A stretch of 58,693 nucleotides of DNA from a virus: the IMG/VR virus record IMGVR_UViG_3300035698_012504, positions 1 to 58,693 of that record. One strand, given 5' to 3'. The notes under the pieces were generated by a model. That model was not told where the DNA came from. It made no database searches and saw nothing but the letters and a program-made list of their open reading frames with translations. Each line of letters opens with the position of its first letter. Positions within the stretch are counted from its first letter, which is position 1. Below, one piece after another: positions 11,561 to 34,924 of the stretch. The position numbers were made by a program, and so were the translations under genes.

Positions 11561-12328
11561 ATGAGAAGGAAAGAAGTGTTTGTCATAGGGCTTGGAAATC
11601 CTGGGAACGCGGCCTCAATAGATTCTAGGCATAACGTTGGACAACTTGCCGTCGGTAGAGCACTTGCAATATATGGTGACTTACGTCCTCCAGGATCTGA
11701 GTCTCATAGGGACCGAATACAAAATGAAGATATTAAATTAAAATTGAGAAGAGCACCTATGTCAGTAAAAGATACAAGTATATTAAAATTTGGAGAGAAT
11801 CGAAGATCATATAAATATTACAGATCAACCGTGCTGCTCTATGGAATGACCATCAATTTTATAGAACCGGTTAATGTATATATGAACAGTTCTGGAAGAT
11901 TTATACGTGCGCTTAGATTAGATACAGATGAGTTTCTAGAAAATTTACTTATTATTCATGATGATATAGATTTACCAATTGGACGAGTGAGATTCCGTAC
12001 TGGGGGAGGGGACGGGGGACACAATGGAATAAAGAATATACGAGTAAATTTAGGAGATGATTTCTCTAGATTAAAAGTAGGAGTTGGAAGACCAACAGAT
12101 GATACAGTAGAACAATATCTAACTAGAGAAATGTCACTTAAACATAGGAAGCATATTAATAAGGTAATAGATACTATATTGAAAAAGTGTATGCTCGATT
12201 GGGCATTATATGGAACAGCGCATTGTTCTGTTAAGTACAACAAACTATTTGTTAATGGAAGTGGTAATGTTACTACATGGAAGAAACATCAAAAGGAGCT
12301 TGAAGAACTTGTGCGAAAAGAAGTCTGA
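11561..12328 (+). CDS. pth: peptidyl-tRNA hydrolase (255 aa, with an insertion and a C-terminal extension)
   Basis: Pth motifs VIGLGNPG..SRHNVG and HDDIDLPIGRVRFRTGGGDGGHNGIKNI. Confidence 0.85.
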   Translation: MRRKEVFVIGLGNPGNAASIDSRHNVGQLAVGRALAIYGDLRPPGSESHRDRIQNEDIKLKLRRAPMSVKDTSILKFGENRRSYKYYRSTVLLYGMTINFIEPVNVYMNSSGRFIRALRLDTDEFLENLLIIHDDIDLPIGRVRFRTGGGDGGHNGIKNIRVNLGDDFSRLKVGVGRPTDDTVEQYLTREMSLKHRKHINKVIDTILKKCMLDWALYGTAHCSVKYNKLFVNGSGNVTTWKKHQKELEELVRKEV

Positions 12329-17323: not shown

Positions 17324-18589
17324 ATGGCAGAAGAACCACTAAATCACCACATATCACCAAACATGGCGCATCACTATTATATTAATAATGTATTTAGTGC
17401 TTTTATACGTGGGATCGCAGATTATTTTAAAACAGAATGGTTTGATGGTAGAAATAAAGATATTGTAATATCTACATATGAAAAAGCAGTAGAACATTTT
17501 AGAAACCGTCAGAACTTTGGAGGAGAGAAATTTTCTCCCAAATATCCATTTATAACATTCAATCCAGAGATTGACTTCGAGCCAGATGACCCTATGGGGA
17601 AATTCTTTCACAATTATCCAATATACAAAGGTTATTCTTCACAAATAGCTGCTAATTTATATAGTCCTTATATTTTTGAAGATGATAATGTGACTATTTC
17701 TGCAGTTATGAATAGATATAAAGGAAACTTTGAAATGATATTGTGGGCTAGTTCTGTATATGAGCTAATAGATTTTAAGGCGTATACATATCAGTTTTTT
17801 GGTGGTATGAATCGCCCAATATATCCTGCTATAATCGAATCATACCTTACTCTACCAGATGAATTTATATATTATACATATGATAACCCATATACAGCAG
17901 AAAAATACAATCTAGATTGGGAAAAATCAACTGGAGAAATAAATCTATTTAAAAACATCAACCAGAACAAGATGGTGTTTCCCTTTGTTCTGAGACCTTG
18001 GATTAAACTAACTGGTGCCAGCGATGGTTCAGAAAAGTATGGTGGTTCTGGAGATGAAATCGGAGATCATAGATTAGTTATTAATATGGAATGGGAAGTA
18101 ACATTACCGACCCATATGATAATGAGAGCAAGGAAGTTTCCAGATAGGTGTCATAAATTTCAGATGGATATACAAGTATCATCAAGATATATTCCACTAG
18201 CAAATGATTCAAGTACCCAGTATCCTGTAGCAGATGAAGTGACCGTTGTTTATGATGACATGATTGATTCGACTGCATCAGCTGAAGAAGCAATGGTATC
18301 AGTTGACCTAATTTATCACGATGCATATCAGTATGTTTGGACACAAGAGGATTACGATCTAGCAAATTCAACTACAGTGGCCGACAAGGATAAAAAGATC
18401 TCTTTAGATATTCCGAGAGAACCAACGGACTGTGTGTATCTAAAAGTGTATGGTAAGTATGGGGAGCTAGTTCGAGACTTCTATTGGAATGTGGTATCAC
18501 AAAACCAATTAGAATTGGTAGCATTTAATTTAAATTCATTAGAAGTAGATGATATATTAATGATTGTATATTATACAGAAAATGATTAG
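17324..18589 (+). CDS. hypothetical protein (421 aa)
   Basis: TAGGAGAA RBS. Long ORF. Confidence 0.75.
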   Translation: MAEEPLNHHISPNMAHHYYINNVFSAFIRGIADYFKTEWFDGRNKDIVISTYEKAVEHFRNRQNFGGEKFSPKYPFITFNPEIDFEPDDPMGKFFHNYPIYKGYSSQIAANLYSPYIFEDDNVTISAVMNRYKGNFEMILWASSVYELIDFKAYTYQFFGGMNRPIYPAIIESYLTLPDEFIYYTYDNPYTAEKYNLDWEKSTGEINLFKNINQNKMVFPFVLRPWIKLTGASDGSEKYGGSGDEIGDHRLVINMEWEVTLPTHMIMRARKFPDRCHKFQMDIQVSSRYIPLANDSSTQYPVADEVTVVYDDMIDSTASAEEAMVSVDLIYHDAYQYVWTQEDYDLANSTTVADKDKKISLDIPREPTDCVYLKVYGKYGELVRDFYWNVVSQNQLELVAFNLNSLEVDDILMIVYYTEND

Positions 18590-18610: not shown

Positions 18611-19177
18611 ATGTCTAAAAAACTTTCATATGAATATGTAAAGCAATATTTTGAAGAAAATAGTTGCGAATTATTAGAAAGGGAATATGATAATTGTATG
18701 ATTAAAATGAAATATAAATGTTCTTGTGGAAGAATAAGTAAAATAAGTTTTAATAATTTTAAAAGTAAACATAGATGTAGTGATTGTGGTGGGAATGAAA
18801 AACATTCTTATGAATATATAAAACAATATTTTAAAGATAATAATTGTGAATTATTAGAAAAAGAATATATTAATAATAAAACTAACATGAAATATAAATG
18901 TGAATGTGAAATATTACTAGGATATTCTAGAAAAGATATTTTAGAGTATCTTAAGAAGGATCCAAATTTTGATAACTGGGTAAAGAATTCATCCAGCTGG
19001 CACATAGATCATATTATTCCAATAAAAGCATTTGTAGAAAATGAAATAACTAATCCGAAAATAATAAACGCTTTAGATAATTTAAGAATTATACACTGGA
19101 AAGAAAATTTACAAAAAGGTGCTACATTTAATAAGAATGAACTTCAAAGTTATGTGCAATCGAAAGGTATATTATGA
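18611..19177 (+). CDS. HNH homing-endonuclease-like protein, family copy 1 (188 aa, internally shortened)
   Basis: Two N-terminal YEY[VI]KQYF..CELLE..MKYKC.C modules. C-terminal HNH core WHIDHIIPIKAF...NLRIIHWKENLQKG. Confidence 0.75.
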   Translation: MSKKLSYEYVKQYFEENSCELLEREYDNCMIKMKYKCSCGRISKISFNNFKSKHRCSDCGGNEKHSYEYIKQYFKDNNCELLEKEYINNKTNMKYKCECEILLGYSRKDILEYLKKDPNFDNWVKNSSSWHIDHIIPIKAFVENEITNPKIINALDNLRIIHWKENLQKGATFNKNELQSYVQSKGIL

Positions 19178-19704
19178 TAAAATATGTCAAAGGTGATTTG
19201 TTCCTAACAGACTGCAATTCTATTTGCCATGGCGTGTCGTGCGCTGGTGTGATGGGAGTCGGGGTTGCTAAGAGAATGAAAGAAAGATACCCTGCTAATT
19301 TCAAATACTATCATAACCAATATAAATTTAAAAAATTGAAACCAGGTGAAGTATATATCTTTGCAGGATATCCTAGAAAAATTATAAATCTTACAACTCA
19401 AAGTCAATATGGTAGAAAGAGAATTAAGTATGCGACATTGGAAAATATTAAATCTTGTTTTTTGAAACTTAAATTATTACTACCAGAATATAATAAGGTG
19501 ATAGTTAAAAAGGGAAGCGGACCCATACAAAGTATTGCTCTTCCTAGAATAGGATCTGGATATGGCGGACTTAATTGGAAAGATGTTAAAAATCTTATAG
19601 ATACTCATCTCTCTGATACAGTACCCATAGTAGTATTTGAAGATTTTAAATATGGAATGAAGGCAGAAGAAGAAAATGAATTTCTGTCAAAGGAGCTGAA
19701 TTAA
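19174..19704 (+). CDS. macrodomain (ADP-ribose binding/hydrolase) protein
   Basis: VKGDLF...CHGVSCAGVMGVGVAKRMKERYP and IALPRIGSGYGGLNW, the typical macro-domain motifs. ATGA overlap with the upstream HNH. Confidence 0.65.
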   Translation: MIKYVKGDLFLTDCNSICHGVSCAGVMGVGVAKRMKERYPANFKYYHNQYKFKKLKPGEVYIFAGYPRKIINLTTQSQYGRKRIKYATLENIKSCFLKLKLLLPEYNKVIVKKGSGPIQSIALPRIGSGYGGLNWKDVKNLIDTHLSDTVPIVVFEDFKYGMKAEEENEFLSKELN

Positions 19705-19708
19705 AAAA

Positions 19709-20176
19709 ATGGGTGCAAGTAAAAGAATAGTTCAGATTTTAGAGGAAGCATTTAAGGCAGCAGTAGTTGATGCTATTGTATGCGATGAGACTGAAACCAA
19801 AGGTAGTTCTTGGATAAGGATCACCCTAAAAGATAGTGGGCCTTTCTTTATATTATGTAGAGCACTAGGCATTAATGATAACATGCGATCTAAAAAGGGT
19901 GGAATTCTTCATATTTATGTATCTCATAATCCGTGTCAAGAACAAAATAGAGCATATGCAAAAGCTTTTACCAAGATTTTAAATGATCATGATATTACTG
20001 CAACTGTAGAAGATCCAGAATCTGGATCAATTCCAGAAGAAGTAAAGAAGCAGTTAAAGAAAAAAATACAAGAGGCTCAGGAAATACATAAGAGACTCGG
20101 AAAAATAAAAGACGAGGACCTGGAAGATTTTCAAGAGGACGAGTGTTATGAAGATACAGAAGAGGACGATGAATAG
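19709..20176 (+). CDS. hypothetical protein with an acidic C-terminal tail (155 aa)
   Basis: ORF only 4 nt downstream of the macro-domain gene stop. No recognisable motif. Confidence 0.7.
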   Translation: MGASKRIVQILEEAFKAAVVDAIVCDETETKGSSWIRITLKDSGPFFILCRALGINDNMRSKKGGILHIYVSHNPCQEQNRAYAKAFTKILNDHDITATVEDPESGSIPEEVKKQLKKKIQEAQEIHKRLGKIKDEDLEDFQEDECYEDTEEDDE

Positions 20177-20185
20177 AAAGGACGA

Positions 20186-20374
20186 ATGATGGTTACTCAA
20201 AGTGTACAAGAAATTCTTGATGCGATGGAGAAAGTCAAAGACGTAGATTTTAGACCATTAGGTCCGCCACTTGACGCAGAGGAACGTAGGAAGCGTGTAC
20301 TGGATCTATGTGAGAGATGGAAAGATGCGCCATATATTGGTGAAGATGAATTTTTAAAGTTGGAAGGAAGATAA
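20186..20374 (+). CDS. hypothetical protein (62 aa)
   Basis: GAAAGGA RBS. TAATG overlap with the next gene. Confidence 0.6.
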   Translation: MMVTQSVQEILDAMEKVKDVDFRPLGPPLDAEERRKRVLDLCERWKDAPYIGEDEFLKLEGR

Positions 20375-20727
20375 TGAACAGGGAAGAACTCAATAAAATA
20401 TTTGAGGAGACAGTACAAGAATGCCGGGAAATTTTATTTTCTAAGAATATGGAATATAGTAGAGATTCGAATGCTCTTGAAAACTTTGATGTTACATCGG
20501 CTGCGGCTGGTATAACAGAACTTCAGGCTCTGTACGTTTTCCTCAGAAAGCATATAAATAGTATAGAAACATATATAAGAGAAGGTGAAACATATTCAGA
20601 TGAAACTATACAAGGTAGAGTGTACGATTGTATCAATTACCTAATTTTATTCAATGCACTTCTTAAAAGAGAAGAATTAAGAAATAAAACTGAGAAAGTA
20701 GAGAAGGATAAGATATTATTAGAATAA
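20374..20727 (+). CDS. all-helical protein, possibly DUF1599-like (nucleotide-modification-associated domain 1)
   Basis: The KNMEYSRD...NF...LRKHINSIE...DCINYLILF pattern resembles that family. From memory only. Confidence 0.35.
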   Translation: MNREELNKIFEETVQECREILFSKNMEYSRDSNALENFDVTSAAAGITELQALYVFLRKHINSIETYIREGETYSDETIQGRVYDCINYLILFNALLKREELRNKTEKVEKDKILLE

Positions 20728-20746: not shown

Positions 20747-21434
20747 ATGGGTAAAAAATTAACTTATGAATATGTTAAACAATACTTTAAAGATAATAAT
20801 TGTGAATTGTTAGAAGATGAATATATTAATTCTAGGACTAAAATGAAATATAAGTGTTCATGTGGGAATACATCTGAGATTAGATTTAGTGATTTTAAAA
20901 ACGGTCATAGATGTAATAAATGTGGGACTAAAAGGACCCGTGATAAATTAAGTCATAGTTATAAATATATAAAGCAATTATTTAAAGATCAGGGGTGTGA
21001 ATTATTAGAAAAAGATTATGTTGATAATCATACTAATATGAAATATATATGTTCTTGCGGTAACTCTGCAGAAATAACTTTTAACAGATTTCAATATGGA
21101 CATAGATGTATGAGATGTGGAAATGATAAGATATCAGGTCATAATCATCATAATTGGAACCCTGATAGAAATGTTGTTAGGAAGACAAAAGAGATACACA
21201 ACTTAAGTGCGTCATATAAAAATAACTACAGAAAGAAACATAACATCTAAAGACGTGCATATAGATCATATAATTCCGGTAAAAGCATTTGTGGAAAATG
21301 GGATATTTGATTTAGATATAATCAATGATGATAAAAATTTACAGTTGCTTTCCAGTAGGGAAAATTTAAGTAAAAGTGGTAAATATAATCAGGAAGATCT
21401 TGTAATATTTTTAAAGGAAAGGGTATCGGTATAA
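20747..21434 (+). pseudogene. HNH homing-endonuclease family copy 2, split by a frameshift (20747-21250 / 21207-21434) and internally deleted
   Basis: The N-terminal modules and NWNPDR are in one frame. The HNH core VHIDHIIPVKAF...NLQLLSSRENLSKSG is in the +1 frame. The linker present in copies 3 and 4 is missing. Confidence 0.6.
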
Positions 21435-22388
21435 ATGAGAGTTGAGAATACATTATTTGTTGAGAAGTATAGACCTAAATCATTAGATGAAATGATTCTT
21501 AGTGATGATTATAGAAAAATATTTGAAGAGTTTATAAATAAGAAAGAAATTCCAAATCTACTTTTATTTGGTCCGCCGGGCGGCGGAAAAACTACGATTG
21601 CTAGAATTTTAATTCATGAGATAATGCCAGATAATATTGACGTTCTATTTTTAAACGGGAGTGTCACCACTGGAGTGGACGTGCAGAGAGACCTTGTGGA
21701 AGAATTTCTTTCCGTTGCGAGTATAAGCGGATGCAATTATAAAATAGTATTTATAGATGAGGCTGAGATGCTCAGTATAAATGCACAAAAAGCATTGAAG
21801 AGTATCACGGAAGAATTTACGGCGTATGGACGTTTTATATTCACTACAAATGACCCATCAAAAATAATAGACCCGCTACATTCACGATTCCAAGCATTTC
21901 AATTCAATAGTTTGAATAAAGAGTTTGTAAAATATCATGTGTTTACTGTATTATCTGCAGAAGAAATTACATATGATGTAGAGGTAGTAGAAAAAACAAT
22001 AAACACATTTTATCCTGATGTTAGAAAAATTCTAGGGACAATACAATCTAGAATAGTTAATAAAGAATTAATTATAAATAAAGAAGATTTAAATTCCACA
22101 GAATTATTAATTGTAGAAAAAGTTAAAGTCATGGTAGATCGAATCTTGAATGGGAATAGTGCAAGTGAGTCAGCTATACAAAAAATAATTTCTGAAGAAG
22201 ATGTTGATTTCTTTAATTTGTATAGAGAGTTGTTTAAATCACCCGATATTCCTCCGTATATAAAAATTGTTGTAAATAAATATGCAATTTCTCATATGAA
22301 TGCTATGATATCAGAGATGAATTTTATGTCTTTTGTTTATGAAACTATGAAAATCGCGTCTCACGTAAAATCACTGAAAGGGAAGTAG
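21435..22388 (+). CDS. clamp-loader ATPase subunit (RFC small subunit / T4 gp44-like)
   Basis: FVEKYRPKSLDEM, Walker A GPPGGGKTT, DEAE box FIDEAEML, and the SRF motif in LHSRFQAFQF. Confidence 0.9.
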   Translation: MRVENTLFVEKYRPKSLDEMILSDDYRKIFEEFINKKEIPNLLLFGPPGGGKTTIARILIHEIMPDNIDVLFLNGSVTTGVDVQRDLVEEFLSVASISGCNYKIVFIDEAEMLSINAQKALKSITEEFTAYGRFIFTTNDPSKIIDPLHSRFQAFQFNSLNKEFVKYHVFTVLSAEEITYDVEVVEKTINTFYPDVRKILGTIQSRIVNKELIINKEDLNSTELLIVEKVKVMVDRILNGNSASESAIQKIISEEDVDFFNLYRELFKSPDIPPYIKIVVNKYAISHMNAMISEMNFMSFVYETMKIASHVKSLKGK

Positions 22389-23380
22389 TGGTATATAAGA
22401 ATCTGGAAAAGTTAAGGTCTTTTTTAGACAAGAAGACCGGCTTAGCATATTTTAATGGATCGCATAGTGAATTAATTTGTAGATGTCCTTCTTGCGAACC
22501 AGATTCTAAAAGAAGACATGGACATTTATATATTAGTACACACGAACCACTTTTTAACTGTTTTAAATGTAATTATAAGGGGCTTGTAACCAAATTATTA
22601 AGACTTTTGGACGAAAATCCAGAAGATTACCTATATTTAGACAAAATTAAGATAAAAAATAGTGAATTTTCATTAAATCGCCCCATTTTTGAAGTAAAAA
22701 CTTATGATATTCCAGAAGACACTAAGCTATCTAAAATAAAACGGGCGTATTTAAAGACGAGATTAGGGGTTGATTTAGATGAGGCGAAGGTGCCGAATCT
22801 AATAATTGATCTTGAGCGGTTCATAAACATTAACAATCTTAGTATACCTGATTCGGTATTGGGACTATATCCATACTTATGTGAGAACTTTATTGGATTC
22901 TTATGCAATAGAGGTACACTAATAATATTAAGAAATGTAGACTGTAATGCTAAAATATCCCATTTTCGGTTAAAAATAGGAGAAATTGGTATTTTTAGTG
23001 ACTTTTATGGGTTAAAAATAGGACCAAGGCGACCAAATCTTAATAAAATCGTACTTTGTGAAGGAATCTTTGATGTTTTATCGTCGAAGTCAAGGACTGA
23101 ACTTGATAATATACTTGGTGGTACTCATTTCCTTTCTGCGGTATTAGGAAGACATTATTATAATACCTTCACATCTATTTTAGATTATTGCAAATTAACG
23201 ATGGCGGACGTAGTTATTCTTGGGGATAATGATGTCCCAATAAAAGAATACGATTTTATAAGAAATCATCCATCTGTAGTAGGATTTAATCTATATATAA
23301 ATAAAATTGGTCATGATTTTGCAACTAAAAATATAGAACCATTGAAAGTAGTTACTGGAAAACCAAATAGGAGAGTGTAA
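22388..23380 (+). CDS. DNA primase-like protein (zinc ribbon + Toprim)
   Basis: CRCPSC...H.H...CFKC zinc motif. Toprim-like CEGIFDVLS and ILGDNDVP. GTG start overlaps the upstream TAG. Confidence 0.5.
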   Translation: MVYKNLEKLRSFLDKKTGLAYFNGSHSELICRCPSCEPDSKRRHGHLYISTHEPLFNCFKCNYKGLVTKLLRLLDENPEDYLYLDKIKIKNSEFSLNRPIFEVKTYDIPEDTKLSKIKRAYLKTRLGVDLDEAKVPNLIIDLERFININNLSIPDSVLGLYPYLCENFIGFLCNRGTLIILRNVDCNAKISHFRLKIGEIGIFSDFYGLKIGPRRPNLNKIVLCEGIFDVLSSKSRTELDNILGGTHFLSAVLGRHYYNTFTSILDYCKLTMADVVILGDNDVPIKEYDFIRNHPSVVGFNLYINKIGHDFATKNIEPLKVVTGKPNRRV

Positions 23381-24653: not shown

Positions 24654-26315
24654 ATGACGTATAAACCATCATTTAGAAAATACAAAGCCCTTAAAGTTAA
24701 AAAACCAAAAAGAAATATTAGGGCCACTGATAAGCGAGGGCAAGTAACTATAAAAGGAAAATCTATATCAATTACTGAAGTTGAGAAGCTACATCAAAAT
24801 AAAAAGGTAAGGAAACCTAAAACTATATATAGAAATAGAACAAGATCTGATGAACACAGACATTATCCATTAAATATAGTGGTTGTTGCATATAATGAAT
24901 TAGAATATACTATGAAATGTGTAGAATCTATCAGAAAGAATACAAAAGGATCATATGCCCTCTATTTAGTAGACAATGGGTCAGATGATAAAACATATAA
25001 ATACTTTAGGACTGTTAAAAATGCAAATATTATAAGGATTGATAAGAATCGGGGATATGCATATGGATGCAATGAAGCATTGCGTAAGATATTTCGTGGT
25101 GATGTGATTATATTAAATAGCAATATAATTGTTCCAAAAAATTGGACCACCCACCTTTTAAATGTTTTAAATTCTAATGAAAATATAGGTATGGTTGGTC
25201 CAGTGTCCAATGATATTAAAGGGGCACAGAATATAAATGTAGATATTAATTGTTCGCCTCAGGAGATTAATAAATTATCTGATAAGATTCAGATGAGTGC
25301 AGGAACTGCCAAAATTAAAGTAGATAATATTTGTGGACATTGTGTTGTTATACGTGGAGATGTATTTAAACAAATTGGATTATTTGATCCCGTATTTGTA
25401 TGTGATACCTTCGGAAATAATGATTACTGTAAGAGAGTAAAACTAATGGGGAAAGAGATAGTAATTTCAAAGGGATCGTTTGTTTACCATTGCACCAACG
25501 AATCACCTATTAGTATTGATGAAAAAGAATATACAAAACGGTTCGAATTTAACACAGGATTAACTCAAAAGAAATGGAATAATAAAGGAGTTGATCTTGA
25601 TAGTACGTTAATATTAGATATGGATGAATACGAGGACCTTGTATCTATTATAACACCATGCTTCAATAGTCATAACTTTATAGAAGCATGTGTAAATTCT
25701 GTCCTTACCCAAACTCATAAAAATATTGAAATGATAATAGTTGATGATGGATCTAATGCAGAGACAAAAAGAAAACTAAAGATGTGTGTTGATAAAAGCG
25801 AGCGTATTAAGTTAATAACTAATCCTATAAATAAGGGGAGATCGTTCTCTAGGAATAGAGCTATAGAAAATGCTAAAGGAAAATATATCCTCCCTCTTGA
25901 TTCTGATGATCTTATACATAGACAGTGTGTTGCAATATTAGTGAAGCATATGAAAGAAAATGATGATGCGAAAATTTGTTATCCTTTAACAAAGGAATTT
26001 GGAAATTGTAATAAAATATGGTTTTATCCTTATAGAAAAGATTTACTAGTTCAACAAAATTTATTACCATGCACCTCTATGTTCTTAAAGGATGCTTGGA
26101 TAAACTGTGGTGGGTATGATATAAGGGTGGATGGATACGAAGACTGGGACTTTTGGTTGAGAATGTATGATAGTAATACAAGGGCAATTGGTGTACCAGA
26201 ACCAATATTTTTTTATAGAAAACACAATACTAATTCTGCCAATGGTATAGATAGAAAACATGGGCACGATATAGTAACCAAAATTAAATCATTCCACCCT
26301 AAATTATTTGGATAG
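24654..26315 (+). CDS. bifunctional glycosyltransferase with two GT2 domains and a ~70-aa Lys/Arg-rich N-terminal extension
   Basis: Domain 1: VVVAYNE..LVDNGSDD...NRGYAYGCN. Domain 2: IITPCFN..IIVDDGS...LDSDD...YEDWDFW. Confidence 0.8.
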   Translation: MTYKPSFRKYKALKVKKPKRNIRATDKRGQVTIKGKSISITEVEKLHQNKKVRKPKTIYRNRTRSDEHRHYPLNIVVVAYNELEYTMKCVESIRKNTKGSYALYLVDNGSDDKTYKYFRTVKNANIIRIDKNRGYAYGCNEALRKIFRGDVIILNSNIIVPKNWTTHLLNVLNSNENIGMVGPVSNDIKGAQNINVDINCSPQEINKLSDKIQMSAGTAKIKVDNICGHCVVIRGDVFKQIGLFDPVFVCDTFGNNDYCKRVKLMGKEIVISKGSFVYHCTNESPISIDEKEYTKRFEFNTGLTQKKWNNKGVDLDSTLILDMDEYEDLVSIITPCFNSHNFIEACVNSVLTQTHKNIEMIIVDDGSNAETKRKLKMCVDKSERIKLITNPINKGRSFSRNRAIENAKGKYILPLDSDDLIHRQCVAILVKHMKENDDAKICYPLTKEFGNCNKIWFYPYRKDLLVQQNLLPCTSMFLKDAWINCGGYDIRVDGYEDWDFWLRMYDSNTRAIGVPEPIFFYRKHNTNSANGIDRKHGHDIVTKIKSFHPKLFG

Positions 26316-26319
26316 TAAA

Positions 26320-27300
26320 ATGAAAATTTTATTCTGTACATATGAAATGTCTGATTATGGATTAGATCTATTATATGATGGATTGTGTAAATTATTAGGA
26401 CCTGATAAAATATTCGAGTATCCAGTAAAACCATATTATCATGGCACAAGAGACGGAAGGTTTGCAAGATACCCTCAGTTTTTCAAATACCCATTAAAAC
26501 ATTCAAATGCTGATATAGATCGTAAACTAAGAAGAGATTTTTTCGATGTTATATTAGTAGGGTGTAGATCAAAAAATGATTTCACATATCCCGATGCGGT
26601 TAATGTAAATCATGAATATGTAATGATCAAAGAATTAATAAAACTGAAGTCAAAAAAGATACCTACTTTCTTAGTAGATCAAGATGACTTCCCACCAATT
26701 AATAACACTCTCTTTAAAAAAGAGATACCTAATTCTCTTGCTTATTTTAAGCGAGAGTATAGAAAGGATGTACACCATCCTAATAACATACACCCCCTCC
26801 CATTTTCTTTTTCTACAGATTTTATGCCAAACAGTAGATCTAAAATAAAAAATAGGATTTTGTTCTGGGCAGGGGATATAAATACAGATCATAGACGACA
26901 ATATATTGAGAGAATGAAACAAGAACTCAAGTTAGATTACAATAAGAAGTTTCCCCCTAATGAGTTCCATTCAATTTTAAGTAAATCTAGAATGGCTTTA
27001 AATCTTTTTGGATTTGGAAACGATACTGTTAGATATTATGAGATACCAGTATATGGTGCTATGTTATTCTCTATGAAATCAAACAACTTAATTCAACATG
27101 ATTTTATTAACAATAAATCTGCTATTCTTTTTTCGTCCCCTCAAGAAATGGTGGATAAATTTAAATTTTATAGGAAGAAGCATCTTCTTATAGAGAAGAT
27201 ATCAACTGAAGGGTTTAAACATGTTAGAAGATATCATAATAGTAAAACAAGGGCTGAACAGTTTATGAAAATAGTTAGGAATTATAATGGAAAGAAATAA
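26320..27300 (+). CDS. CgeB-like / GT-B-type glycosyltransferase (putative)
   Basis: The C-terminal RYYEIPVYGAMLFS pattern resembles the CgeB/Glyco_trans_1_2 family. ATG 26320 preferred to TTG 26308. Confidence 0.4.
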   Translation: MKILFCTYEMSDYGLDLLYDGLCKLLGPDKIFEYPVKPYYHGTRDGRFARYPQFFKYPLKHSNADIDRKLRRDFFDVILVGCRSKNDFTYPDAVNVNHEYVMIKELIKLKSKKIPTFLVDQDDFPPINNTLFKKEIPNSLAYFKREYRKDVHHPNNIHPLPFSFSTDFMPNSRSKIKNRILFWAGDINTDHRRQYIERMKQELKLDYNKKFPPNEFHSILSKSRMALNLFGFGNDTVRYYEIPVYGAMLFSMKSNNLIQHDFINNKSAILFSSPQEMVDKFKFYRKKHLLIEKISTEGFKHVRRYHNSKTRAEQFMKIVRNYNGKK

Positions 27301-28108
27301 AATATCAGTAGTTATACCTTGTTATAATTATGGGAGATTTATTGTTAGGTGTGTTAACTCAGTATTAATGCAGACATATAAAAATTATGAAATTATTATC
27401 GTGGATGATTACTCAGATGAGAAAACACGAACACTAATAAAACAACAAAGAGCTAAGAACAAAAAAATAATAAAAACTATTTTTAATTCTAAAAATTTAG
27501 GAACAGCTACATCTAGAAATAAAGGAATTGAACGAGCATCTGGTGATTATATTTTGCTATTAGATGCAGATGATTACCTTCTTACAAGATGCTTAGAAAA
27601 ATTAATAGTTGCTCATAAAAAGTATGAAGAAGACATAATATACTCTAAAAATATTAGATTATCTGCTACAGGTACTAGAACTGGTGTGGAGGGACAAAGC
27701 TATTCAATTGAGAGATTAAAAAATTATGAATGTGTTATGTTCGTAACATCATTATTTAAGAAAGAGCATTGGAACGAGGTCGGTAGATTTGATACATCTA
27801 TGGTAGCATGTGAAGATTGGGAATTCTGGATTAATATGGCGAAACATAGTCATTATGGTAAGTTGATAGACGATATACTATGGTGTAGAACAGATCATAA
27901 AACTTCTAAATTTGAAACAACTGATTCACATCGTATGGATGAGGTAGTAAGACAACTCAGAGAAAAACATCATCCTGGTTTTTTAAATGAGCAACGAAAT
28001 TGGAAAAAGAAAAATAGAAGAACTATAAGTACACCTATCAATAAACAACGAAGTTTATTGATCAAAAAATATGAAATAACTTCTAGAAATAAAGAAAGGG
28101 TAAAATAG
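27287..28108 (+). CDS. GT2 family glycosyltransferase
   Basis: VVIPCYN..IIIVDDYSDE...LLDADDYL...CEDWEFW. Confidence 0.8.
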   Translation: MERNKISVVIPCYNYGRFIVRCVNSVLMQTYKNYEIIIVDDYSDEKTRTLIKQQRAKNKKIIKTIFNSKNLGTATSRNKGIERASGDYILLLDADDYLLTRCLEKLIVAHKKYEEDIIYSKNIRLSATGTRTGVEGQSYSIERLKNYECVMFVTSLFKKEHWNEVGRFDTSMVACEDWEFWINMAKHSHYGKLIDDILWCRTDHKTSKFETTDSHRMDEVVRQLREKHHPGFLNEQRNWKKKNRRTISTPINKQRSLLIKKYEITSRNKERVK

Positions 28109-28962
28109 TGTTTGATAAAAAATATTCATCTTTGAAAAAAAGACATCTACAATTAAGAGAACATCTTGGAATAAGAACAGGAGTAGTTAAAAAAATAGAG
28201 AAAAACTCAACTAATACAGTAGGTATTATTATTCCTGCATTTAATCAATTAGCTTATTGTAAGAAATGTATTAACTCTGTGATTCACAATACTAAACAAT
28301 CATATAAATTAATTTTGGTAAATAATGGGTCTACCGATGGGATAGCACATTATTTTGATACAATAGAAGATGCAGAGGTAATACATTCATCTAAGAATCT
28401 AGGGTTTCCTGCAGGAGTTAACCTAGGTATAAAAAGACATCTTGCTCTAGGCTTAGGGCACTGTGTATTATTAAATACTGATACAGTTGTAACTCCTGGA
28501 TGGCTGAAGCGGTTAACTAGCTACTTCCCTTCTGATCCAAAGTTAGGAATGATTGGCCCTAGAACAAATTGTGCTGGATCAAAGCAACAATTACATGGTA
28601 TTGGGGAGTTAAACAAACCTAAAGAAATTAATGATTTTGGAAAACAATTAAGATTAAATCATGCTGGGCAATTAGAAGATATAAATGTTCTTATAGGATT
28701 TTGTGTAGTAATAAGAAAAAATGTATTGAGAGAAGTTGGACTACTTGATGAAAGATTTGGGTTAGGTAACTGTGATGATGACGATTATTGTAAAAGAGTA
28801 AAGATGGCAGGATATGACCTCAAAATGGCTAAGGATGTATATGTTCATCATTATGGAAGTAAAACATTTCAAGCAATGAAAGTAGATCGTGGGACTTTGA
28901 TTAAAGAAAATAGAAAGAAATTTCAAGAGAAGTGGAAAAAAGGAATGAAGAATGAAAAATAG
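28108..28962 (+). CDS. GT2 family glycosyltransferase (rhamnosyltransferase-like)
   Basis: IIIPAFNQ..LVNNGSTDG...NLGFPAGVN..LLNTDTVV...DDDDYC. GTG start overlaps the upstream TAG. Confidence 0.75.
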   Translation: MFDKKYSSLKKRHLQLREHLGIRTGVVKKIEKNSTNTVGIIIPAFNQLAYCKKCINSVIHNTKQSYKLILVNNGSTDGIAHYFDTIEDAEVIHSSKNLGFPAGVNLGIKRHLALGLGHCVLLNTDTVVTPGWLKRLTSYFPSDPKLGMIGPRTNCAGSKQQLHGIGELNKPKEINDFGKQLRLNHAGQLEDINVLIGFCVVIRKNVLREVGLLDERFGLGNCDDDDYCKRVKMAGYDLKMAKDVYVHHYGSKTFQAMKVDRGTLIKENRKKFQEKWKKGMKNEK

Positions 28963-29773
28963 AGCAATAGTAACTGTTACAGGAGGCGAGCCGTCATATA
29001 ATGAGTTAGCAACAATAACCCATTTTTTCATGAAACTTTATGCTAAAAAAGTTAATGCTGATTTTATTGTTTGGAATAATGTAGAGCAGCATAAATTTCC
29101 TCATTATAAAAAATTATTTATAGGGGATTTATTAGAACATTATAATCGGGTATTATATTTAGATACAGATATACTAGTTAAACTAGATTCGCCAGATATA
29201 TTTAATATAGTTCCCCCAGAAAAATTGGGGATGTATAATGAAGGTAGAGAATATAACGATCTTATCTCACAAAAAAGAATAGGGTCCTTTACGCAAGAAT
29301 ACAATAAAGTATTACTGGCGCATGGATTCCCTCCTGCAGACATTAGTAATTGGAGTGGAAAAAGTGAATTTAATACTGGGGTAATCGTTGCATCAAAAAA
29401 ACACATAACTTTATTTAGAGCACCCCTTAAAGAAATGATGGTTAAGGGTCTAAGAGATCAATCATATATTAACATGCGAGTAATATCTAGGAAGGTTCCT
29501 ATGATGGATATAGGGATCGATTTTAATTGTAAGTTCAATCATAAGAAGCCTGCTGAAAAGGCACACTTTATACATTTTATACATGTTATTGGGTATAAAG
29601 CAAGACAAGAAGAATTAGAGAAATTTGTTAAGGTCCAATATGGGGAAAAAAGGGTCCGCGAAATATACTGTGGAAAAATCGGTCAACCCCTAAAGGAAAT
29701 CGCTCCACCAAAAGAAGAAGAAGAGAAAAATATAGAAGAAGGAAATTCATCGGAAGAAAAAGATAATGAATAA
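28952..29773 (+). CDS. nucleotide-diphospho-sugar transferase, GT8-like (putative), with an acidic C-terminal tail
   Basis: VLYLDTDILV DxD motif in a GT-A-like context. Confidence 0.4.
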   Translation: MKNRAIVTVTGGEPSYNELATITHFFMKLYAKKVNADFIVWNNVEQHKFPHYKKLFIGDLLEHYNRVLYLDTDILVKLDSPDIFNIVPPEKLGMYNEGREYNDLISQKRIGSFTQEYNKVLLAHGFPPADISNWSGKSEFNTGVIVASKKHITLFRAPLKEMMVKGLRDQSYINMRVISRKVPMMDIGIDFNCKFNHKKPAEKAHFIHFIHVIGYKARQEELEKFVKVQYGEKRVREIYCGKIGQPLKEIAPPKEEEEKNIEEGNSSEEKDNE

Positions 29774-30293
29774 ACTTTTTTGTATTGGGCTCTCTAGAAC
29801 AGGAACAACCAGTATTCATAAAGCTTTAAATATATTAGGAATAAATAGCTTTCATTTTCCTACTAACAATAGGCAAATAAAATCTCATAAAGCATTATCA
29901 GATATTACAATTTCATATAGATTTGAACAGTTAGATAAAAAATATCCAAATTCTAAGTTTATATTTACGACAAGGGATATAGAAGGTTGGTTAAAATCAT
30001 GTAAATATCACTTCGAAGTAAGATCAAGTATGTCTAATATAAAATCTGGAAAATGGAAAAAAATATTATCAAAAGCAAGGAAGGATATGTATGGGATAGA
30101 TTTTTATAATGAAAAAGTTTGGAGAGATGTATGTATCAGGCATACTGATTATGTTAAAGAATATTTTAAAAATAGAGGCGATGATTTATTAATTATAGAT
30201 ATATGCTCTGGTGAAGGATGGAAAAAAATCTGCCCATTTTTGAATTGTAGCATACCAAATAAGGAGTTTCCGCATGCCTTCAGAACAAAATAA
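29766..30293 (+). CDS. sulfotransferase-family protein (Sulfotransfer_4-like)
   Basis: N-terminal PAPS-loop-like IGLSRTGTTSIHKALNILG. Paralogue at 33584. Confidence 0.55.
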   Translation: MNKLFCIGLSRTGTTSIHKALNILGINSFHFPTNNRQIKSHKALSDITISYRFEQLDKKYPNSKFIFTTRDIEGWLKSCKYHFEVRSSMSNIKSGKWKKILSKARKDMYGIDFYNEKVWRDVCIRHTDYVKEYFKNRGDDLLIIDICSGEGWKKICPFLNCSIPNKEFPHAFRTK

Positions 30294-31056
30294 GAATTTT
30301 GCTATAATCTTTCCCGGAAGGACAGGATGCACGTTTACTATGCACTCTATAAATAAAAATAAAAATGTATCTATTCTATTAGAACCATTGCCAAATAATG
30401 CTAGAGAAATAATAGAGCAATATAATAAGGAATCAAATACTGATTACAAGTTGATAAACATTAAGCGTGCTGTGGAGAGCAACACCGTACCATATGGTAT
30501 GTCTCTTCTTATGAAACTAATAGCCAAGAGTCAAGAAAATATACTGAGAGATTTCTACTCTAGAAAAAGACCCACGACCGAAGTATGTGGAACAAACATT
30601 CAACTAGCAGATGTAATGGACCATGATAAATTTATAAAAATGATGCAAGAATATAATGTACAAATTATAGTATATACTCGTCAAAATATTATTAAACATT
30701 ATGTATCGTGGAGAAATCTTAGAATAAGAATAAAACACGGAAACAAACAAGTTGAACCATATACTGTGGATATAGATCACTTAAAATTATACTTAGCTAA
30801 AGAAAACGTTAATGATAAACATGTTAACTTTGTTAAAAAAATAGGTAACCCGTATATGGTTACTAGTTACGAAGAATTTTTAGAGAACAAGAAAAGAAAT
30901 ATACGAAATATATGTAATTTTGTAGGATTTAAACACTGTGGCGAACTATCTAAAATGACAAAGAAAACTAATGATGATTTAAAAAAATCAATTAAAAATT
31001 ACGAAGAAGTTGCACAAGTATTAAAAAATACTAAATTTGAATGGATGCTAAAATAG
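30274..31056 (+). CDS. sulfotransferase-like protein (Stf0-like, putative)
   Basis: IIFPGRTGCTF P-loop-like motif near the N-terminus. Size is consistent. Confidence 0.35.
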   Translation: MPSEQNKNFAIIFPGRTGCTFTMHSINKNKNVSILLEPLPNNAREIIEQYNKESNTDYKLINIKRAVESNTVPYGMSLLMKLIAKSQENILRDFYSRKRPTTEVCGTNIQLADVMDHDKFIKMMQEYNVQIIVYTRQNIIKHYVSWRNLRIRIKHGNKQVEPYTVDIDHLKLYLAKENVNDKHVNFVKKIGNPYMVTSYEEFLENKKRNIRNICNFVGFKHCGELSKMTKKTNDDLKKSIKNYEEVAQVLKNTKFEWMLK

Positions 31057-31082
31057 AAAGGCTAGGGATAGAGAAATATTAA

Positions 31083-31970
31083 ATGAATATAGAAAAACAT
31101 TTGAGTGAACATACAAAAATAATGTTTGGACCATTCTTTGGAGAGTTTGGATGGGAAGTACTAAAATGGGCACCATTTATAAAATGGTATCGTAATAAGT
31201 ACCAATCTAAAAAAATAGCAGTTTCCACTAGAGGAGACCGATTTGACTTATATTATAATTCAGCTGATTTTATCCACACATTCAAGATAAAAGGAGACTA
31301 TAAACGATTCAAACCCACTGGAGTCGAATGTAATTTACCAGGTGAGATAAGAAAAAATATTATGAATGATATAAGAAATAAATATCCAAATTGGTATATA
31401 TTTAATCCATCATGGAGTATTTCCCCAGGTAAGTCTATCAATAAACATAATTCATTATATCATTTCGAACCTAGGCCATCGAACTCTAAAAAAATATTGG
31501 ATAGACTAGATGGTAAAATTCCAATAGTTATTAGCTCAAGACATAGACTAGATAATAATCTTCGCAATTGGGGAAGGAAGCGTTGGATAAATCTTTTTAG
31601 ATTAATCGAAAAAGAAGACAAGTATGTAGTTTTTGTGGCCGGTAAATCTCCATCATACATCAAATCTTCAAATAATAATTTTTACAACCTAGAAAGTCTT
31701 GTGGATGAACAAACATCAGAGGTAGGATTATCTATAGCAGCAATCAACGCATCTCGACTTGTAGTGTCCTCCCAATCAGGAATAGTATTATTGACAAATA
31801 TATTAAAGACCCCTATTATATTTTGGGGGGATCAAATAAGGAGACATAGTTGTAAGGATAATCCTCTAAATAATAATGTAATTGGAATAGAAGATCTAAA
31901 CTATAATATTCGTCCGAAGGTAATATTAGAAGAGATCTCTAAGTTTTTTAAGGAGTTAACACATGAATAA
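31083..31970 (+). CDS. hypothetical protein in the glycan island (possible glycosyltransferase)
   Basis: Long ORF. The function guess rests on context alone. Confidence 0.3.
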   Translation: MNIEKHLSEHTKIMFGPFFGEFGWEVLKWAPFIKWYRNKYQSKKIAVSTRGDRFDLYYNSADFIHTFKIKGDYKRFKPTGVECNLPGEIRKNIMNDIRNKYPNWYIFNPSWSISPGKSINKHNSLYHFEPRPSNSKKILDRLDGKIPIVISSRHRLDNNLRNWGRKRWINLFRLIEKEDKYVVFVAGKSPSYIKSSNNNFYNLESLVDEQTSEVGLSIAAINASRLVVSSQSGIVLLTNILKTPIIFWGDQIRRHSCKDNPLNNNVIGIEDLNYNIRPKVILEEISKFFKELTHE

Positions 31971-32628
31971 TTTTTCAGTAGTTTCTGTGCCAAGAAGTGG
32001 TTCCCATTTCTTGGCAAAAATGTTAAATAAAAGTCCAAGTTGGACAGTTATCCCAGAGCACGACGATGACTTCGGAAGAGAGATCGGAAAGGGATTTTCT
32101 AAAAAAGAGAAATGGCTTAGAAGGATAAATAAAAGGCTTCAACAAGACTTTTATGGGGAAGTGTCTCCACAACATATATTTCATCTTGATGAAATTAATG
32201 CAAATAAAAAAGTATGTTTGTACCGACACCCATATGATTTTATGCTGTCTACTTTCAATAGAAAAAACCAATATATTACTCAGTTCCCAATGGCATATGG
32301 CCTCTGGTATATCCCATTCTATTTTACAATAGATAGATATATTAGAGAAGGTATATACTCTATGAAATTTGAGAAGATGATTAATAATAAAAAAGTTATA
32401 TTAAATTTGTGTGATTATTTAGGAATAAATGATATCGATTCAGATAAAATTAATATGAATAAAAAAATAAACAGTTCGGAGTCTCATAATCAAAAAAAAC
32501 AGTGGAAATCCTTATCAATGTTAACCCCGATTCAATTTGAAAAATTAAAAGCTATGGATTGGTTTTGTAAGAAGTATTACGGAGACACAATGCAAAAACA
32601 CCATAATAAAAGATTAGAAGTTGAGTAA
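31963..32628 (+). CDS. sulfotransferase-like protein
   Basis: VVSVPRSGSHFLAKML resembles the 5'-PSB loop (P[KR]SG[ST]). Confidence 0.45.
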   Translation: MNNFSVVSVPRSGSHFLAKMLNKSPSWTVIPEHDDDFGREIGKGFSKKEKWLRRINKRLQQDFYGEVSPQHIFHLDEINANKKVCLYRHPYDFMLSTFNRKNQYITQFPMAYGLWYIPFYFTIDRYIREGIYSMKFEKMINNKKVILNLCDYLGINDIDSDKINMNKKINSSESHNQKKQWKSLSMLTPIQFEKLKAMDWFCKKYYGDTMQKHHNKRLEVE

Positions 32629-32629
32629 T

Positions 32630-33085
32630 ATGTTAGATGTAAATATGAAAGATCTTGTAGAAAAAGTAAAGGATGCGTTGTATCGTACCCATTTTGTTTT
32701 TGGACCTTCTGATAAAAGATTACATATTGGTAAAAATGTAAAGGTTTGGAATACTCTTTTCAATGTAGTATCTGGGCATGTTTATATAGGAAATAATTCA
32801 TTTTTTGGACATAATTGTATGGTTCTTACTGGTAGACATAAATGGGTTGATGGTAAACGTGCAAGATTATCTGGTAAAGATGAAATTCCTAAAAAAGGAT
32901 TTGATATAAATATAGGTAAAGGGTGTTGGATTGCATCAGGCGCTATAATTTTAGGAGGGGTTAGTATTGGAGACCACTCAATTGTAGCAGCAGGTTCAGT
33001 AGTTACTAAGGATGTCCCATCCGGAATGGTTGTGGCTGGAAACCCCGCTAGAATTATAAAATCAGTAAATGAGTTGAGTGTATAA
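32630..33085 (+). CDS. hexapeptide-repeat (left-handed beta-helix) acyltransferase
   Basis: IGKGCWIASGAIILGGVSIGDHSIVAAGSVVTKDVPSGMVVAGNPARIIK. Confidence 0.75.
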   Translation: MLDVNMKDLVEKVKDALYRTHFVFGPSDKRLHIGKNVKVWNTLFNVVSGHVYIGNNSFFGHNCMVLTGRHKWVDGKRARLSGKDEIPKKGFDINIGKGCWIASGAIILGGVSIGDHSIVAAGSVVTKDVPSGMVVAGNPARIIKSVNELSV

Positions 33086-33087
33086 AT

Positions 33088-33573: not shown

Positions 33574-33583
33574 GGATATAGTT

Positions 33584-34114: not shown

Positions 34115-34128
34115 GAGTATTAGAGGAT

Positions 34129-34914: not shown

Positions 34915-34924
34915 AGGATTCAAT

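What the first reader, a model, noticed from the sequence alone, without database searches (positions are those of the whole stretch)
19174..19704. Stand-alone macrodomain gene in a small cassette bracketed by two homing-endonuclease genes
The 176-aa protein has macro-domain motifs (GDLF..CHGVSC.GVMGVGVA; ALPRIGSGYGG).

Established knowledge: macrodomains bind or remove ADP-ribose. DarG-type macrodomains reverse DarT ADP-ribosylation of DNA, and viral macrodomains counter host ADP-ribosyltransferases.

Inference: this may be an anti-defence enzyme that removes ADP-ribose marks or degrades ADP-ribose-derived signals. It is followed by three small unknown genes (19709, 20186, 20374). The block lies between HNH copy 1 and the degenerate HNH copy 2, which suggests a mobile accessory cassette.
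Basis: partly seen in the sequence, partly recalled or inferred. Interest (0 to 1): 0.5.

Follow-up and report, generated by a model that had tools for sequence, protein, structure and literature searches.

The report
Phage orphan DarG-like macrodomain (AdfM-type)
This gene encodes a stand-alone ADP-ribose-removing "macro" enzyme of a kind that phages such as T4 already use to undo a bacterial defence that tags viral DNA with ADP-ribose, so it is a new, divergent member of a known counter-defence family and not a new kind of system.

Summary
The 176-aa ORF at 19174-19704 is real and is a confident macrodomain (Pfam above cutoff, AlphaFold pLDDT 90, TM 0.88 to the DarG macrodomain). It belongs to the DarG/TARG1/SCO6735 class and, within it, to the stand-alone "Q-type" subfamily (H-G-x-N...T-Q). 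Phage T4 Tk.4 is in the same subfamily and was recently shown genetically to be the anti-DarTG2 factor AdfM. PhiKZ AdfM, a K-type relative, removes DarT2 ADP-ribose from DNA in vitro. The most likely function is therefore an orphan antitoxin-like hydrolase that strips thymidine-linked ADP-ribose from phage ssDNA.

There is one caveat. The almost invariant active-site Asn is Ser here (S22, unique among 267 sequences), and the same change (N27S) nearly abolished DNA-ADPr hydrolysis in SCO6735.

The "mobile cassette bracketed by homing endonucleases" reading is not supported. Two related phage contigs have the same order (421-aa gene, macro, acidic-tail gene) with no HNH, so the macro gene is a syntenic resident of a replication-gene region and HNH copy 1 is a later intergenic insertion.

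Verdict: new member of a known kind, modest interest.

The parts
19174..19704 (+). Stand-alone Q-type ALC1-like (DarG/TARG1/SCO6735-class) macrodomain, 176 aa; AdfM/Tk.4-like orphan ADP-ribosyl glycohydrolase candidate
19237..19239 (+). Codon TCG = Ser22, at the position of the nearly invariant active-site Asn (DarG N22, SCO6735 N27, PhiKZ AdfM N23)
   Evidence: Sequence read. It differs from AAT/AAC at all three bases. It is the only Ser among 267 aligned sequences apart from TARG1. Both lineage relatives have Asn.
19399..19401 (+). Codon CAA = Gln76, at the position of the DarG K80 / TARG1 K84 catalytic Lys; equals SCO6735 Q85 and the T4 Tk.4 Gln
   Evidence: PMC9411070
19709..20176 (+). 155-aa ORFan with a beta-rich core and a strongly acidic C-terminal tail; conserved immediately downstream of the macro gene in all three known lineage members
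   Evidence: No family, PDB or DarG C-terminal similarity.
20186..20374 (+). 62-aa ORF, no detectable relatives
20374..20727 (+). 117-aa protein of PHROG 6802 (unknown function)
   Evidence: E=2.8e-26; no Pfam, NCBIfam or PDB match
18611..19177 (+). HNH homing-endonuclease copy 1 (188 aa). It is inserted in the spacer between the 421-aa gene and the macro gene, and its stop overlaps the macro start (ATGA).
   Evidence: absent at this position in L009 and L010
20747..21434 (+). HNH homing-endonuclease copy 2, split into two overlapping frames (20747-21250 holds the zinc-ribbon repeats, 21207-21434 the HNH core); it lies immediately upstream of the clamp-loader gene
17324..18589 (+). 421-aa conserved gene of unknown function that anchors the synteny (55% identical to its L009 homologue)
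   Evidence: no family match
21435..23380 (+). Clamp loader (21435-22388) and DNA primase (22388-23380): the replication-module context of the macro gene

Best explanation
The gene encodes an orphan, antitoxin-like macrodomain of the phage AdfM kind (Q-type, T4 Tk.4-like). It is expressed with the replication genes of an uncultured T4-superfamily-like phage. It binds the ADP-ribose that a host DarT2-type toxin attaches to thymidines in single-stranded phage DNA and hydrolyses the ribose-base bond, so that replication can proceed. It lacks DarG's C-terminal DarT-binding domain and has no partner toxin, so it would act purely as an eraser. Shown: the fold, the class and subfamily membership, an intact ADP-ribose-binding pocket, the stand-alone architecture, and resident synteny next to replication genes. 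Inferred: the substrate (dT-ADPr DNA) and the counter-defence role, by homology to T4 Tk.4/AdfM (genetics), PhiKZ AdfM (biochemistry) and SCO6735 (a Q-type mechanism in which the Gln positions the distal ribose and a water molecule does the chemistry). The adjacent HNH genes are independent selfish insertions, not part of the mechanism.
For: The fold and class are well supported: Pfam Macro is above cutoff, the family profile hits the DarG macrodomain at 1.5e-40, TARG1 at 3e-29 and SCO6735 at 7e-23, and the AF2 model (pLDDT 90) matches the DarG macrodomain with TM 0.88. The PADLOC DarG model (4.4e-32) and the NCBIfam DarG model (1.2e-28) match over their macro half only.

Subfamily: 151 of 267 relatives are H-N-Q type and 96% of those are stand-alone, while 105 are N-N-K type and include the true DarGs. 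Subfamily HMMs built without the query place it +36 bits on the Q-type side, like T4 Tk.4 (+57); DarG and PhiKZ AdfM fall -49 to -70. T4 Tk.4 reads AHGCNC...YTQ.

Function of relatives: a tk.4 knockout sensitises T4 to DarTG2 (10.1101/2025.11.20.689424). PhiKZ AdfM removes DarT2 ADP-ribose from DNA (PMC13309987). SCO6735, with Gln85 at the Lys position, cleaves dT-ADPr DNA and protects against DarT (PMC9411070). The closest long Q-type relatives (P0004, 45% identity; P0010) are macro-NADAR fusions, and NADAR is the DarT1-reversing hydrolase.

The ADP-ribose-binding loops are intact (G25, M27-G28-x-G30-x-A32, P124-x-I-G127-x-G129-x-G131-G132-L-x-W135). The gene lies in a replication module. Its divergence from lineage relatives (41%) is no greater than that of its neighbours (39-55%), so there is no sign of decay.
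Against: Ser22 replaces the Asn that is invariant in 262 of 267 aligned relatives. In SCO6735 the identical N27S change almost abolished activity on ADPr-DNA, and mutating this Asn also impairs DarG and PhiKZ AdfM (PMC9411070, PMC13309987). A24 and V29 in the same loop are also atypical. No activity data exist for this protein. The host and its defence repertoire are unknown. DarT2 target motifs are not depleted in the genome (obs/exp 0.94-0.96), which is neutral. Macrodomains of this class also act on proteins and on soluble ADP-ribose derivatives (TARG1, Poa1p).
Confidence: 0.55

Rival explanations
1. It is an active macrodomain hydrolase with a different substrate. Candidates are ADP-ribosylated protein or RNA (for example marks from other host ARTs such as CmdT-like mRNA ADP-ribosyltransferases, or from the phage's own ARTs), or a soluble ADP-ribose derivative (ADP-ribose-1''-phosphate as for Poa1p, O-acetyl-ADP-ribose, or an immune signal).
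For: The same class contains TARG1 (protein Glu/Asp-ADPr; it naturally has Ser at the Asn position) and yeast Poa1p (A1''P phosphatase), both recovered by profile and fold searches. PHROG 335 and the T4/JS98 Tk.4 annotations carry the legacy label 'phosphatase / A1pp motif'. [quoted passage not shown] SCO6735 N27S kept about half its activity on a protein substrate while losing DNA activity (PMC9411070), so S22 could shift specificity.
Against: The family profile scores DarG far higher (141 bits) than TARG1 (105) or Poa1p (73). The TARG1 Lys/Asp dyad is absent (Q76, G131). No ART, KptA/Tpt1, sirtuin, NADAR or Nudix gene was found among the ORFs of about 150 aa or more in the 58.7-kb window. 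The only phage members with tested function (T4 Tk.4, PhiKZ AdfM) act against DarTG2.
Confidence: 0.22
2. It is catalytically impaired. Either it is a non-hydrolytic ADP-ribose (or ADPr-DNA) binder or a direct DarT inhibitor, or it is a gene drifting towards loss because its target defence is no longer met.
For: It has S22 at an essential Asn together with Gln instead of Lys, a combination (H-S-Q) seen in no other sequence examined. SCO6735 N27S is almost inactive on DNA, and catalytically dead SCO6735, DarG and TARG1 still inhibit DarT by direct interaction (PMC9411070). Inactive alleles of other anti-DarT factors (AdfA, AdfB) persist in phages (PMC11481870).
Against: The ORF is intact and identical in at least 6 samples. 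All ADPr-binding and structural motifs are conserved. Its divergence matches that of neighbouring genes. The Ser codon TCG is three substitutions from Asn, so the change is old and has been tolerated. TARG1 shows that Ser at this site is compatible with catalysis in this fold.
Confidence: 0.15
3. One reading: the macro gene plus three small genes form a mobile accessory cassette carried or mobilised by the two flanking HNH homing endonucleases.
For: Two paralogous HNH genes flank the four genes. The window is rich in homing endonucleases. What follows the acidic-tail gene in the relatives is unknown because their contigs end there.
Against: L009 and L010 have the 421-aa homologue, the macro gene and the acidic-tail gene contiguous and HNH-free, with identities (41-55%) consistent with vertical co-inheritance. 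HNH copy 1 occupies just the intergenic spacer. There is no compositional anomaly and there are no flanking repeats other than the HNH genes themselves. Free-standing homing endonucleases mobilise themselves and short flanks, not multi-gene cargo (established knowledge).
Confidence: 0.05

Closest known systems
T4 Tk.4 = AdfM (anti-DarT factor macrodomain), bioRxiv 10.1101/2025.11.20.689424
   Same: Both are stand-alone phage macrodomains of about 155-176 aa with the same Q-type signature (H-G-x-[N]-C...T-Q...P-R-I-G-x-G). Both prefer the Q-type subfamily HMM. Both come from T4-superfamily phages, with no toxin partner and no DarT-binding domain.
   Different: They are only 31% identical. The query has Ser22 where Tk.4 has Asn. 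The query has a longer helix 89-113 and a C-terminal helix that are lineage-specific. The genomic position differs: replication module here, the vs-tk early region in T4.
PhiKZ gp104 AdfM (chimallivirus DarG2-like antitoxin), PMC13309987
   Same: It is a phage-encoded orphan macrodomain of the DarG class, shown biochemically to remove DarT2 ADP-ribose from DNA.
   Different: It is K-type (N23/K78) and prefers the K-type HMM by 49 bits. It is 23% identical to the query and is imported into the phage nucleus.
SCO6735 of Streptomyces coelicolor (PDB 5e3b), PMC9411070
   Same: It is the only biochemically dissected Q-type enzyme: His24, Asn27 and Gln85 correspond to query H19, S22 and Q76. It cleaves thymidine-linked ADPr on DNA without a catalytic Lys.
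   Different: It is bacterial and more distant (profile 84 bits versus 141 for DarG). It has Asn27 and Lys34, where the query has Ser22 and Val29. Its N27S mutant is nearly dead on DNA.
DarG antitoxin of DarTG2 (PDB 5m31, 5m3i; NCBIfam NF048014)
   Same: It is the best structural and sequence match for the macrodomain.
   Different: The query has no C-terminal DarT-binding domain (HMM positions 1-148 of 338 only; 100 bits against a cutoff of 250). It has no adjacent DarT, Lys80 is Gln and Asn22 is Ser.
Human TARG1/OARD1 (PDB 4j5s)
   Same: Same class; it shares the His...Ser pair at query positions 19 and 22.
   Different: The TARG1 Lys84/Asp125 catalytic dyad is absent (Q76, G131).

Membership tests
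Macro domain (Pfam PF01661) | HMM score above the curated gathering threshold | tested here: met
   37.3 bits against a cutoff of 22, E=3e-9, covering residues 19-141
Macro domain (Pfam PF01661) | Three-layer alpha/beta macro fold with the ADP-ribose-binding glycine loops | tested here: met
   AF2 pLDDT 90. Foldseek TM 0.88 and rmsd 1.6 A to the DarG macrodomain in complex with ADP-ribose. G25, M27, G28, G30, A32, P124, G127, G129, G131, G132 and W135 are conserved.
ALC1-like class (DarG / TARG1 / SCO6735) | Closest sequence and structure relatives are members of this class rather than MacroD, PARG or viral Mac1 types | tested here: met
   The top PDB hits by sequence, profile and fold are DarG, TARG1, BT1257, SCO6735, Poa1p and ALC1; alphavirus and MacroD types are far weaker
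Phage AdfM (orphan anti-DarT2 macrodomain), Q-type as in T4 Tk.4 | Phage-encoded, stand-alone, DarG-like macrodomain without a toxin or a DarT-binding domain | tested here: met
   176 aa, single domain. Phage context: clamp loader, primase, RNR, homing endonucleases. No ART nearby.
Phage AdfM (orphan anti-DarT2 macrodomain), Q-type as in T4 Tk.4 | Q-type subfamily signature (H19, G20, Q76, Y79, G80, R125) and a subfamily HMM preference | tested here: met
   All diagnostic residues are present. Q-type HMM 162.5 bits against K-type 126.1; T4 Tk.4 behaves the same way.
Phage AdfM (orphan anti-DarT2 macrodomain), Q-type as in T4 Tk.4 | Conserved active-site Asn (DarG N22, AdfM N23, SCO6735 N27) | tested here: not met
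   Ser22 (TCG). Asn is present in 262 of 267 aligned sequences.
Phage AdfM (orphan anti-DarT2 macrodomain), Q-type as in T4 Tk.4 | Removes DarT2-placed ADP-ribose from DNA and protects the phage from DarTG2 | not testable with these tools
   Requires biochemistry and phage genetics
DarG antitoxin (NCBIfam NF048014 equivalog; PADLOC DarG) | Full-length two-domain protein scoring above the equivalog cutoff | tested here: not met
   100.3 bits against a cutoff of 250; only HMM positions 1-148 of 338. PADLOC HMM positions 1-146 of 329. Positive controls P0034 and P0111 score 420 and 362 bits.
DarG antitoxin (NCBIfam NF048014 equivalog; PADLOC DarG) | Adjacent DarT toxin gene | tested here: not met
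   The neighbours are an HNH gene, ORFans and a clamp loader; there is no DarT/ART hit in PADLOC or Pfam
DarG antitoxin (NCBIfam NF048014 equivalog; PADLOC DarG) | Catalytic Lys80 | tested here: not met
   Gln76 aligns with K80 in pairwise, multiple and profile alignments
SCO6735-type Q mechanism | His-x-x-Asn...Gln constellation (H24, N27, Q85) | tested here: inconclusive
TARG1 | Lys84/Asp125 catalytic dyad | tested here: not met
   Q76 and G131 occupy those positions
Homing-endonuclease-bounded mobile cassette | The block is present or absent as a unit relative to conserved flanks in related genomes | tested here: not met
   In L009 and L010 the macro and acidic-tail genes directly follow the 421-aa gene homologue with no HNH

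The most novel reading that the evidence does not exclude
The lineage-specific H-S-Q pocket (Ser22 together with A24 and V29, seen in no other sequence examined) has changed what this AdfM-family protein does. It may have been retuned to another ADP-ribose conjugate, such as a different base, RNA or protein. Alternatively it may have become a non-hydrolytic ADPr-DNA/DarT binder that works with the conserved acidic-tail neighbour (19709-20176) as a split, two-gene analogue of two-domain DarG, with the acidic tail acting as an ssDNA mimic that blocks the toxin.
Probability: 0.1. Interest if true: 0.55.

Novelty: new member of a known kind. Interest (0 to 1): 0.25.

Why it matters
The finding extends the recently recognised AdfM counter-defence family from coliphage T4 and Pseudomonas jumbo phages to a very divergent, uncultured, AT-rich T4-superfamily-like phage. 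This suggests that DarT2-type DNA ADP-ribosylation is a selective pressure in that environment too. It also provides a natural Asn-to-Ser variant of the Q-type active site. That variant is a ready-made test of the SCO6735 model, in which the Asn locks the Gln that positions the distal ribose. Beyond that, the gene is what a specialist would expect: macro domains occur in about 40-56% of medium and jumbo phages (PMC9503650), and homologues are found in 1270 deposited phage genomes.

Tried and rejected
- Nucleotide search of 7.5 kb around the gene against 50,697 phage records found no match.
- The word-indexed protein search with the single sequence found only the protein itself, so the exhaustive HMMER search was needed.
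- IMG/VR scans with the clamp loader and the 421-aa protein found no relatives. A tblastn search of the 421-aa protein against phages also found none.
- I considered whether the acidic-tail 155-aa neighbour could be a detached DarG C-terminal domain. hhalign against 16 DarG C-terminal regions gave probability 0.2%. There were no PADLOC, Pfam, PHROG, NCBIfam or PDB matches, only two homologues exist in 5.8 billion proteins, and the single-sequence AF2 model was too poor to use (pLDDT 55). The idea is neither supported nor excluded. An SSB-like role is equally speculative.
- Promoter and terminator scans found counts no greater than in shuffles.
- DarT2 target-motif avoidance (TNTC, TTTW): obs/exp 0.94-1.05, so uninformative.
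- I looked for a phage-encoded ART, KptA, sirtuin, NADAR or Nudix partner in the window. None was found among the ORFs of about 150 aa or more; smaller ORFs and the rest of the genome were not scanned.
- I considered whether S22 is a sequencing error. This was rejected: the TCG codon is three changes from Asn, and the protein is identical on 7 contigs.
- The model coordinates are not exposed, so the S22-Q76 distance could not be measured.

Full report
**1. Observation.** The ORF 19174-19704 (+) encodes 176 aa with the quoted motifs.
- It matches Pfam Macro above the gathering cutoff (37.3 against 22 bits), PHROG 335 (E=2.8e-38) and the PADLOC DarG model (E=4.4e-32, but only HMM positions 1-146 of 329).
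- The best solved-structure relatives by sequence are the DarG macrodomains of M. tuberculosis and T. aquaticus, then TARG1.
- An AlphaFold2 model built on 102 homologues is confident (pLDDT 90, pTM 0.85). Its best Foldseek hits are the DarG macrodomain (TM 0.88, rmsd 1.6 A), TARG1, BT1257, Poa1p and SCO6735.

**2. How common the family is.**
- A tblastn search finds homologues in 1270 of 50,697 deposited phage genomes, all below 60% identity. They include the T4-like Tk.4 genes next to vs, and Pseudomonas jumbo phages.
- An exhaustive HMMER search of 1.84 billion representatives gives 6806 hits at E<1e-3. The nearest is only 42% identical.
- A published survey found macro domains in about 40% of medium and 56% of jumbo phages (PMC9503650).
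- A stand-alone phage macro gene is therefore ordinary.

**3. Subfamily.** I aligned 267 sequences: the nearest representatives, profile hits and reference proteins.
- Two clean signature classes appear at query positions 19, 22 and 76. H-N-Q has 151 sequences and N-N-K has 105.
- The K-type has the DarG motifs N-[TP]-V-N-C and F-P-T-K-x-H-W, and it contains the long two-domain proteins. Controls P0034 and P0111 score 420 and 362 bits on the NCBIfam DarG equivalog.
- The Q-type has H-G-[CV]-N-[CA] and T-Q-x-x-[YF]-G and is 96% stand-alone.
- Subfamily HMMs built without the query score it 162.5 bits (Q-type) against 126.1 bits (K-type). T4 and JS98 Tk.4 also prefer Q-type (+57 and +59 bits). 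DarG and PhiKZ gp104 prefer K-type (-49 to -70 bits).
- T4 Tk.4 reads AHGCNC...YTQ.
- NCBIfam's DarG equivalog matches the query only over its macro half, at 100 bits against a cutoff of 250. The protein is therefore not a DarG. It is a member of the orphan Q-type clade.

**4. What that clade does.** Three published lines bear on function.
- A transposon screen and a clean knockout show that T4 tk.4 is required for T4 to resist DarTG2. The gene was named adfM (10.1101/2025.11.20.689424). This fits an earlier finding that T4 lacking adfA and adfN stays DarTG2-resistant (PMC11825919).
- PhiKZ gp104, also called AdfM and K-type, removes DarT2-placed ADP-ribose from DNA in vitro and protects chimalliviruses from DarTG2 (PMC13309987).
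- SCO6735 has Gln85 at the DarG-K80/TARG1-K84 position. It cleaves thymidine-linked ADP-ribose from DNA and protects against DarT. Gln85 is essential, Asn27 holds it in place, and a water molecule is proposed to do the chemistry (PMC9411070).

In addition, the long Q-type proteins closest to the query (P0004, 45% identity, and P0010) are macro-NADAR fusions. NADAR is the hydrolase that reverses DarT1 guanine ADP-ribosylation (PMC11825919). That fusion links the Q-type macro to reversal of DNA ADP-ribosylation. The best-supported mechanism is therefore an orphan eraser of DarT2-type thymidine ADP-ribosylation on phage ssDNA.

**5. The caveat.**
- Position 22 is Asn in 262 of the 267 aligned sequences. 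The query alone has H-S-Q, and TARG1 is H-S-K.
- The codon is TCG, three substitutions from AAT/AAC. The identical protein is found on 7 contigs from at least 6 samples. It is therefore real and old, not an error.
- Both lineage relatives retain Asn.
[quoted passage not shown] Mutating this Asn also impairs DarG and PhiKZ AdfM (PMC9411070, PMC13309987).
- A24 and V29 in the same loop are also unusual for the subfamily.
- On the other side, every ADP-ribose-binding motif is intact. The gene is no more diverged from its relatives (41%) than its neighbours are (39-55%). TARG1 shows that Ser at this site is compatible with catalysis in this fold.
- I therefore hold family membership at about 0.9, but the specific anti-DarT2 hydrolase function in this phage at about 0.55. 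The rivals are a shifted substrate (0.22) and an impaired enzyme or binder (0.15).

**6. The "cassette".**
- The two HNH genes are paralogues, and copy 2 is frame-split in every assembly.
- The contig carrying the nearest macro homologue (L009) has the order 440 - 207 - 415 - macro - 194 aa. This corresponds to the window's 513 - 207 - 421 - [HNH1] - macro - 155, at 23, 47, 55, 41 and 43% identity.
- A third contig (L010) has the 421-like gene, the macro gene and the acidic-tail gene, again without an HNH.
- So the macro gene and its downstream neighbour are resident, co-inherited genes. HNH copy 1 is an insertion of about 585 bp into the intergenic spacer, and its stop overlaps the macro start (ATGA).
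- HNH copy 2 sits directly upstream of the clamp loader, a typical site for a free-standing homing endonuclease next to a conserved gene.
- GC content is uniform. There are no repeats beyond the HNH genes themselves and no promoter or terminator signal above chance.
- The mobile-cassette inference is not supported.

**7. Context.**
- All genes are on one strand and tightly packed.
- The window encodes ThyX, a peptidyl-tRNA hydrolase, a clamp loader, a primase, a 1076-aa RNR, DHFR, a dCMP deaminase, a FEN-type exonuclease, many homing endonucleases and a large glycan-modification island.
- The clamp loader is 33-36% identical to those of T4-like cyanophages, Pelagibacter phage Mosig and Ralstonia jumbo phage RsoM2USA. 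There is no nucleotide-level relative among deposited phages.
- This is an uncultured, AT-rich (about 31% GC) T4-superfamily-like phage.
- No ART, KptA, sirtuin, NADAR or Nudix gene was found among the larger ORFs. This argues against a self-ART or RNA-repair partnership, within the limits of the window.

**8. The neighbour.**
- The 155-aa protein downstream is conserved next to the macro gene in all three lineage members. It has a beta-rich core and an acidic tail of 35-92 residues that is 49-58% Asp/Glu.
- It has only two homologues in 5.8 billion proteins. It shows no detectable similarity to the DarG C-terminal domain or to any family or structure.
- Whether it is an SSB-like replication protein, a DNA mimic or unrelated to the macro gene is open.

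**9. Verdict.** The macro and anti-defence interpretation is supported by homology to experimentally characterised phage AdfM proteins. The cassette interpretation is not supported. The gene is a new, divergent member of a known kind, with one interesting active-site substitution that makes its activity worth testing. Interest 0.25.

Noticed in passing
window 56158-57222 (+): A 354-aa protein matches Pfam Volactin (PF25216) at E=1.3e-61 and 209 bits over the whole model. This is an actin-family cytoskeletal protein encoded by a T4-superfamily-like phage.
   Followed up: no
window 24654-36213 (+), also 48960-49862 and 53730-54476: A long island of glycan-modifying genes: several GT2/GT1/GT8 glycosyltransferases, two Sulfotransfer_4 proteins, a hexapeptide acyltransferase, several methyltransferases and rhamnosyltransferase-like proteins, followed by an ATP-grasp and a GDPD phosphodiesterase.
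   Followed up: no
window 18611, 20747/21207, 40033-40554, 46574-48415, 57179-58075: At least five homing-endonuclease-type genes lie in 58.7 kb: two paralogous HNH genes (one frame-split), an HNH_5 protein, a 613-aa HNH with many zinc-ribbon repeats, and a GIY-YIG protein.
   Followed up: partly
window 19709-20176 (+); L009 3879-4460; L010 970-1608: A lineage-restricted ORFan with a strongly acidic C-terminal tail of variable length is always immediately downstream of the macro gene in the three related phage contigs. It may be SSB-like or a DNA mimic, but nothing supports either reading yet.
   Followed up: partly
proteins P0004 and P0010 (locus L012 1343-2302): The Q-type macrodomains closest to the query among long proteins are fused to a NADAR domain. 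This combines the two known kinds of DNA-ADP-ribose eraser in one protein. They lie on short, cellular-looking contigs with no DarT nearby.
   Followed up: partly
window 40573-43803 (+): The ribonucleotide reductase ORF is 1076 aa, and PHROG 367 matches it in two separate stretches. It may carry an intein or another insertion.
   Followed up: no
window 11561-12328 (+) and 51494-51940 (+): The phage encodes a peptidyl-tRNA hydrolase (Pfam E=6e-34) and a LigD-type 3'-phosphoesterase domain protein (E=6e-15).
   Followed up: no
loci L001, L003-L006 versus the window: Contigs from five other assemblies (ENA, JGI, Logan) are exact substrings of the window, so essentially the same phage genotype recurs in several samples.
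   Followed up: partly
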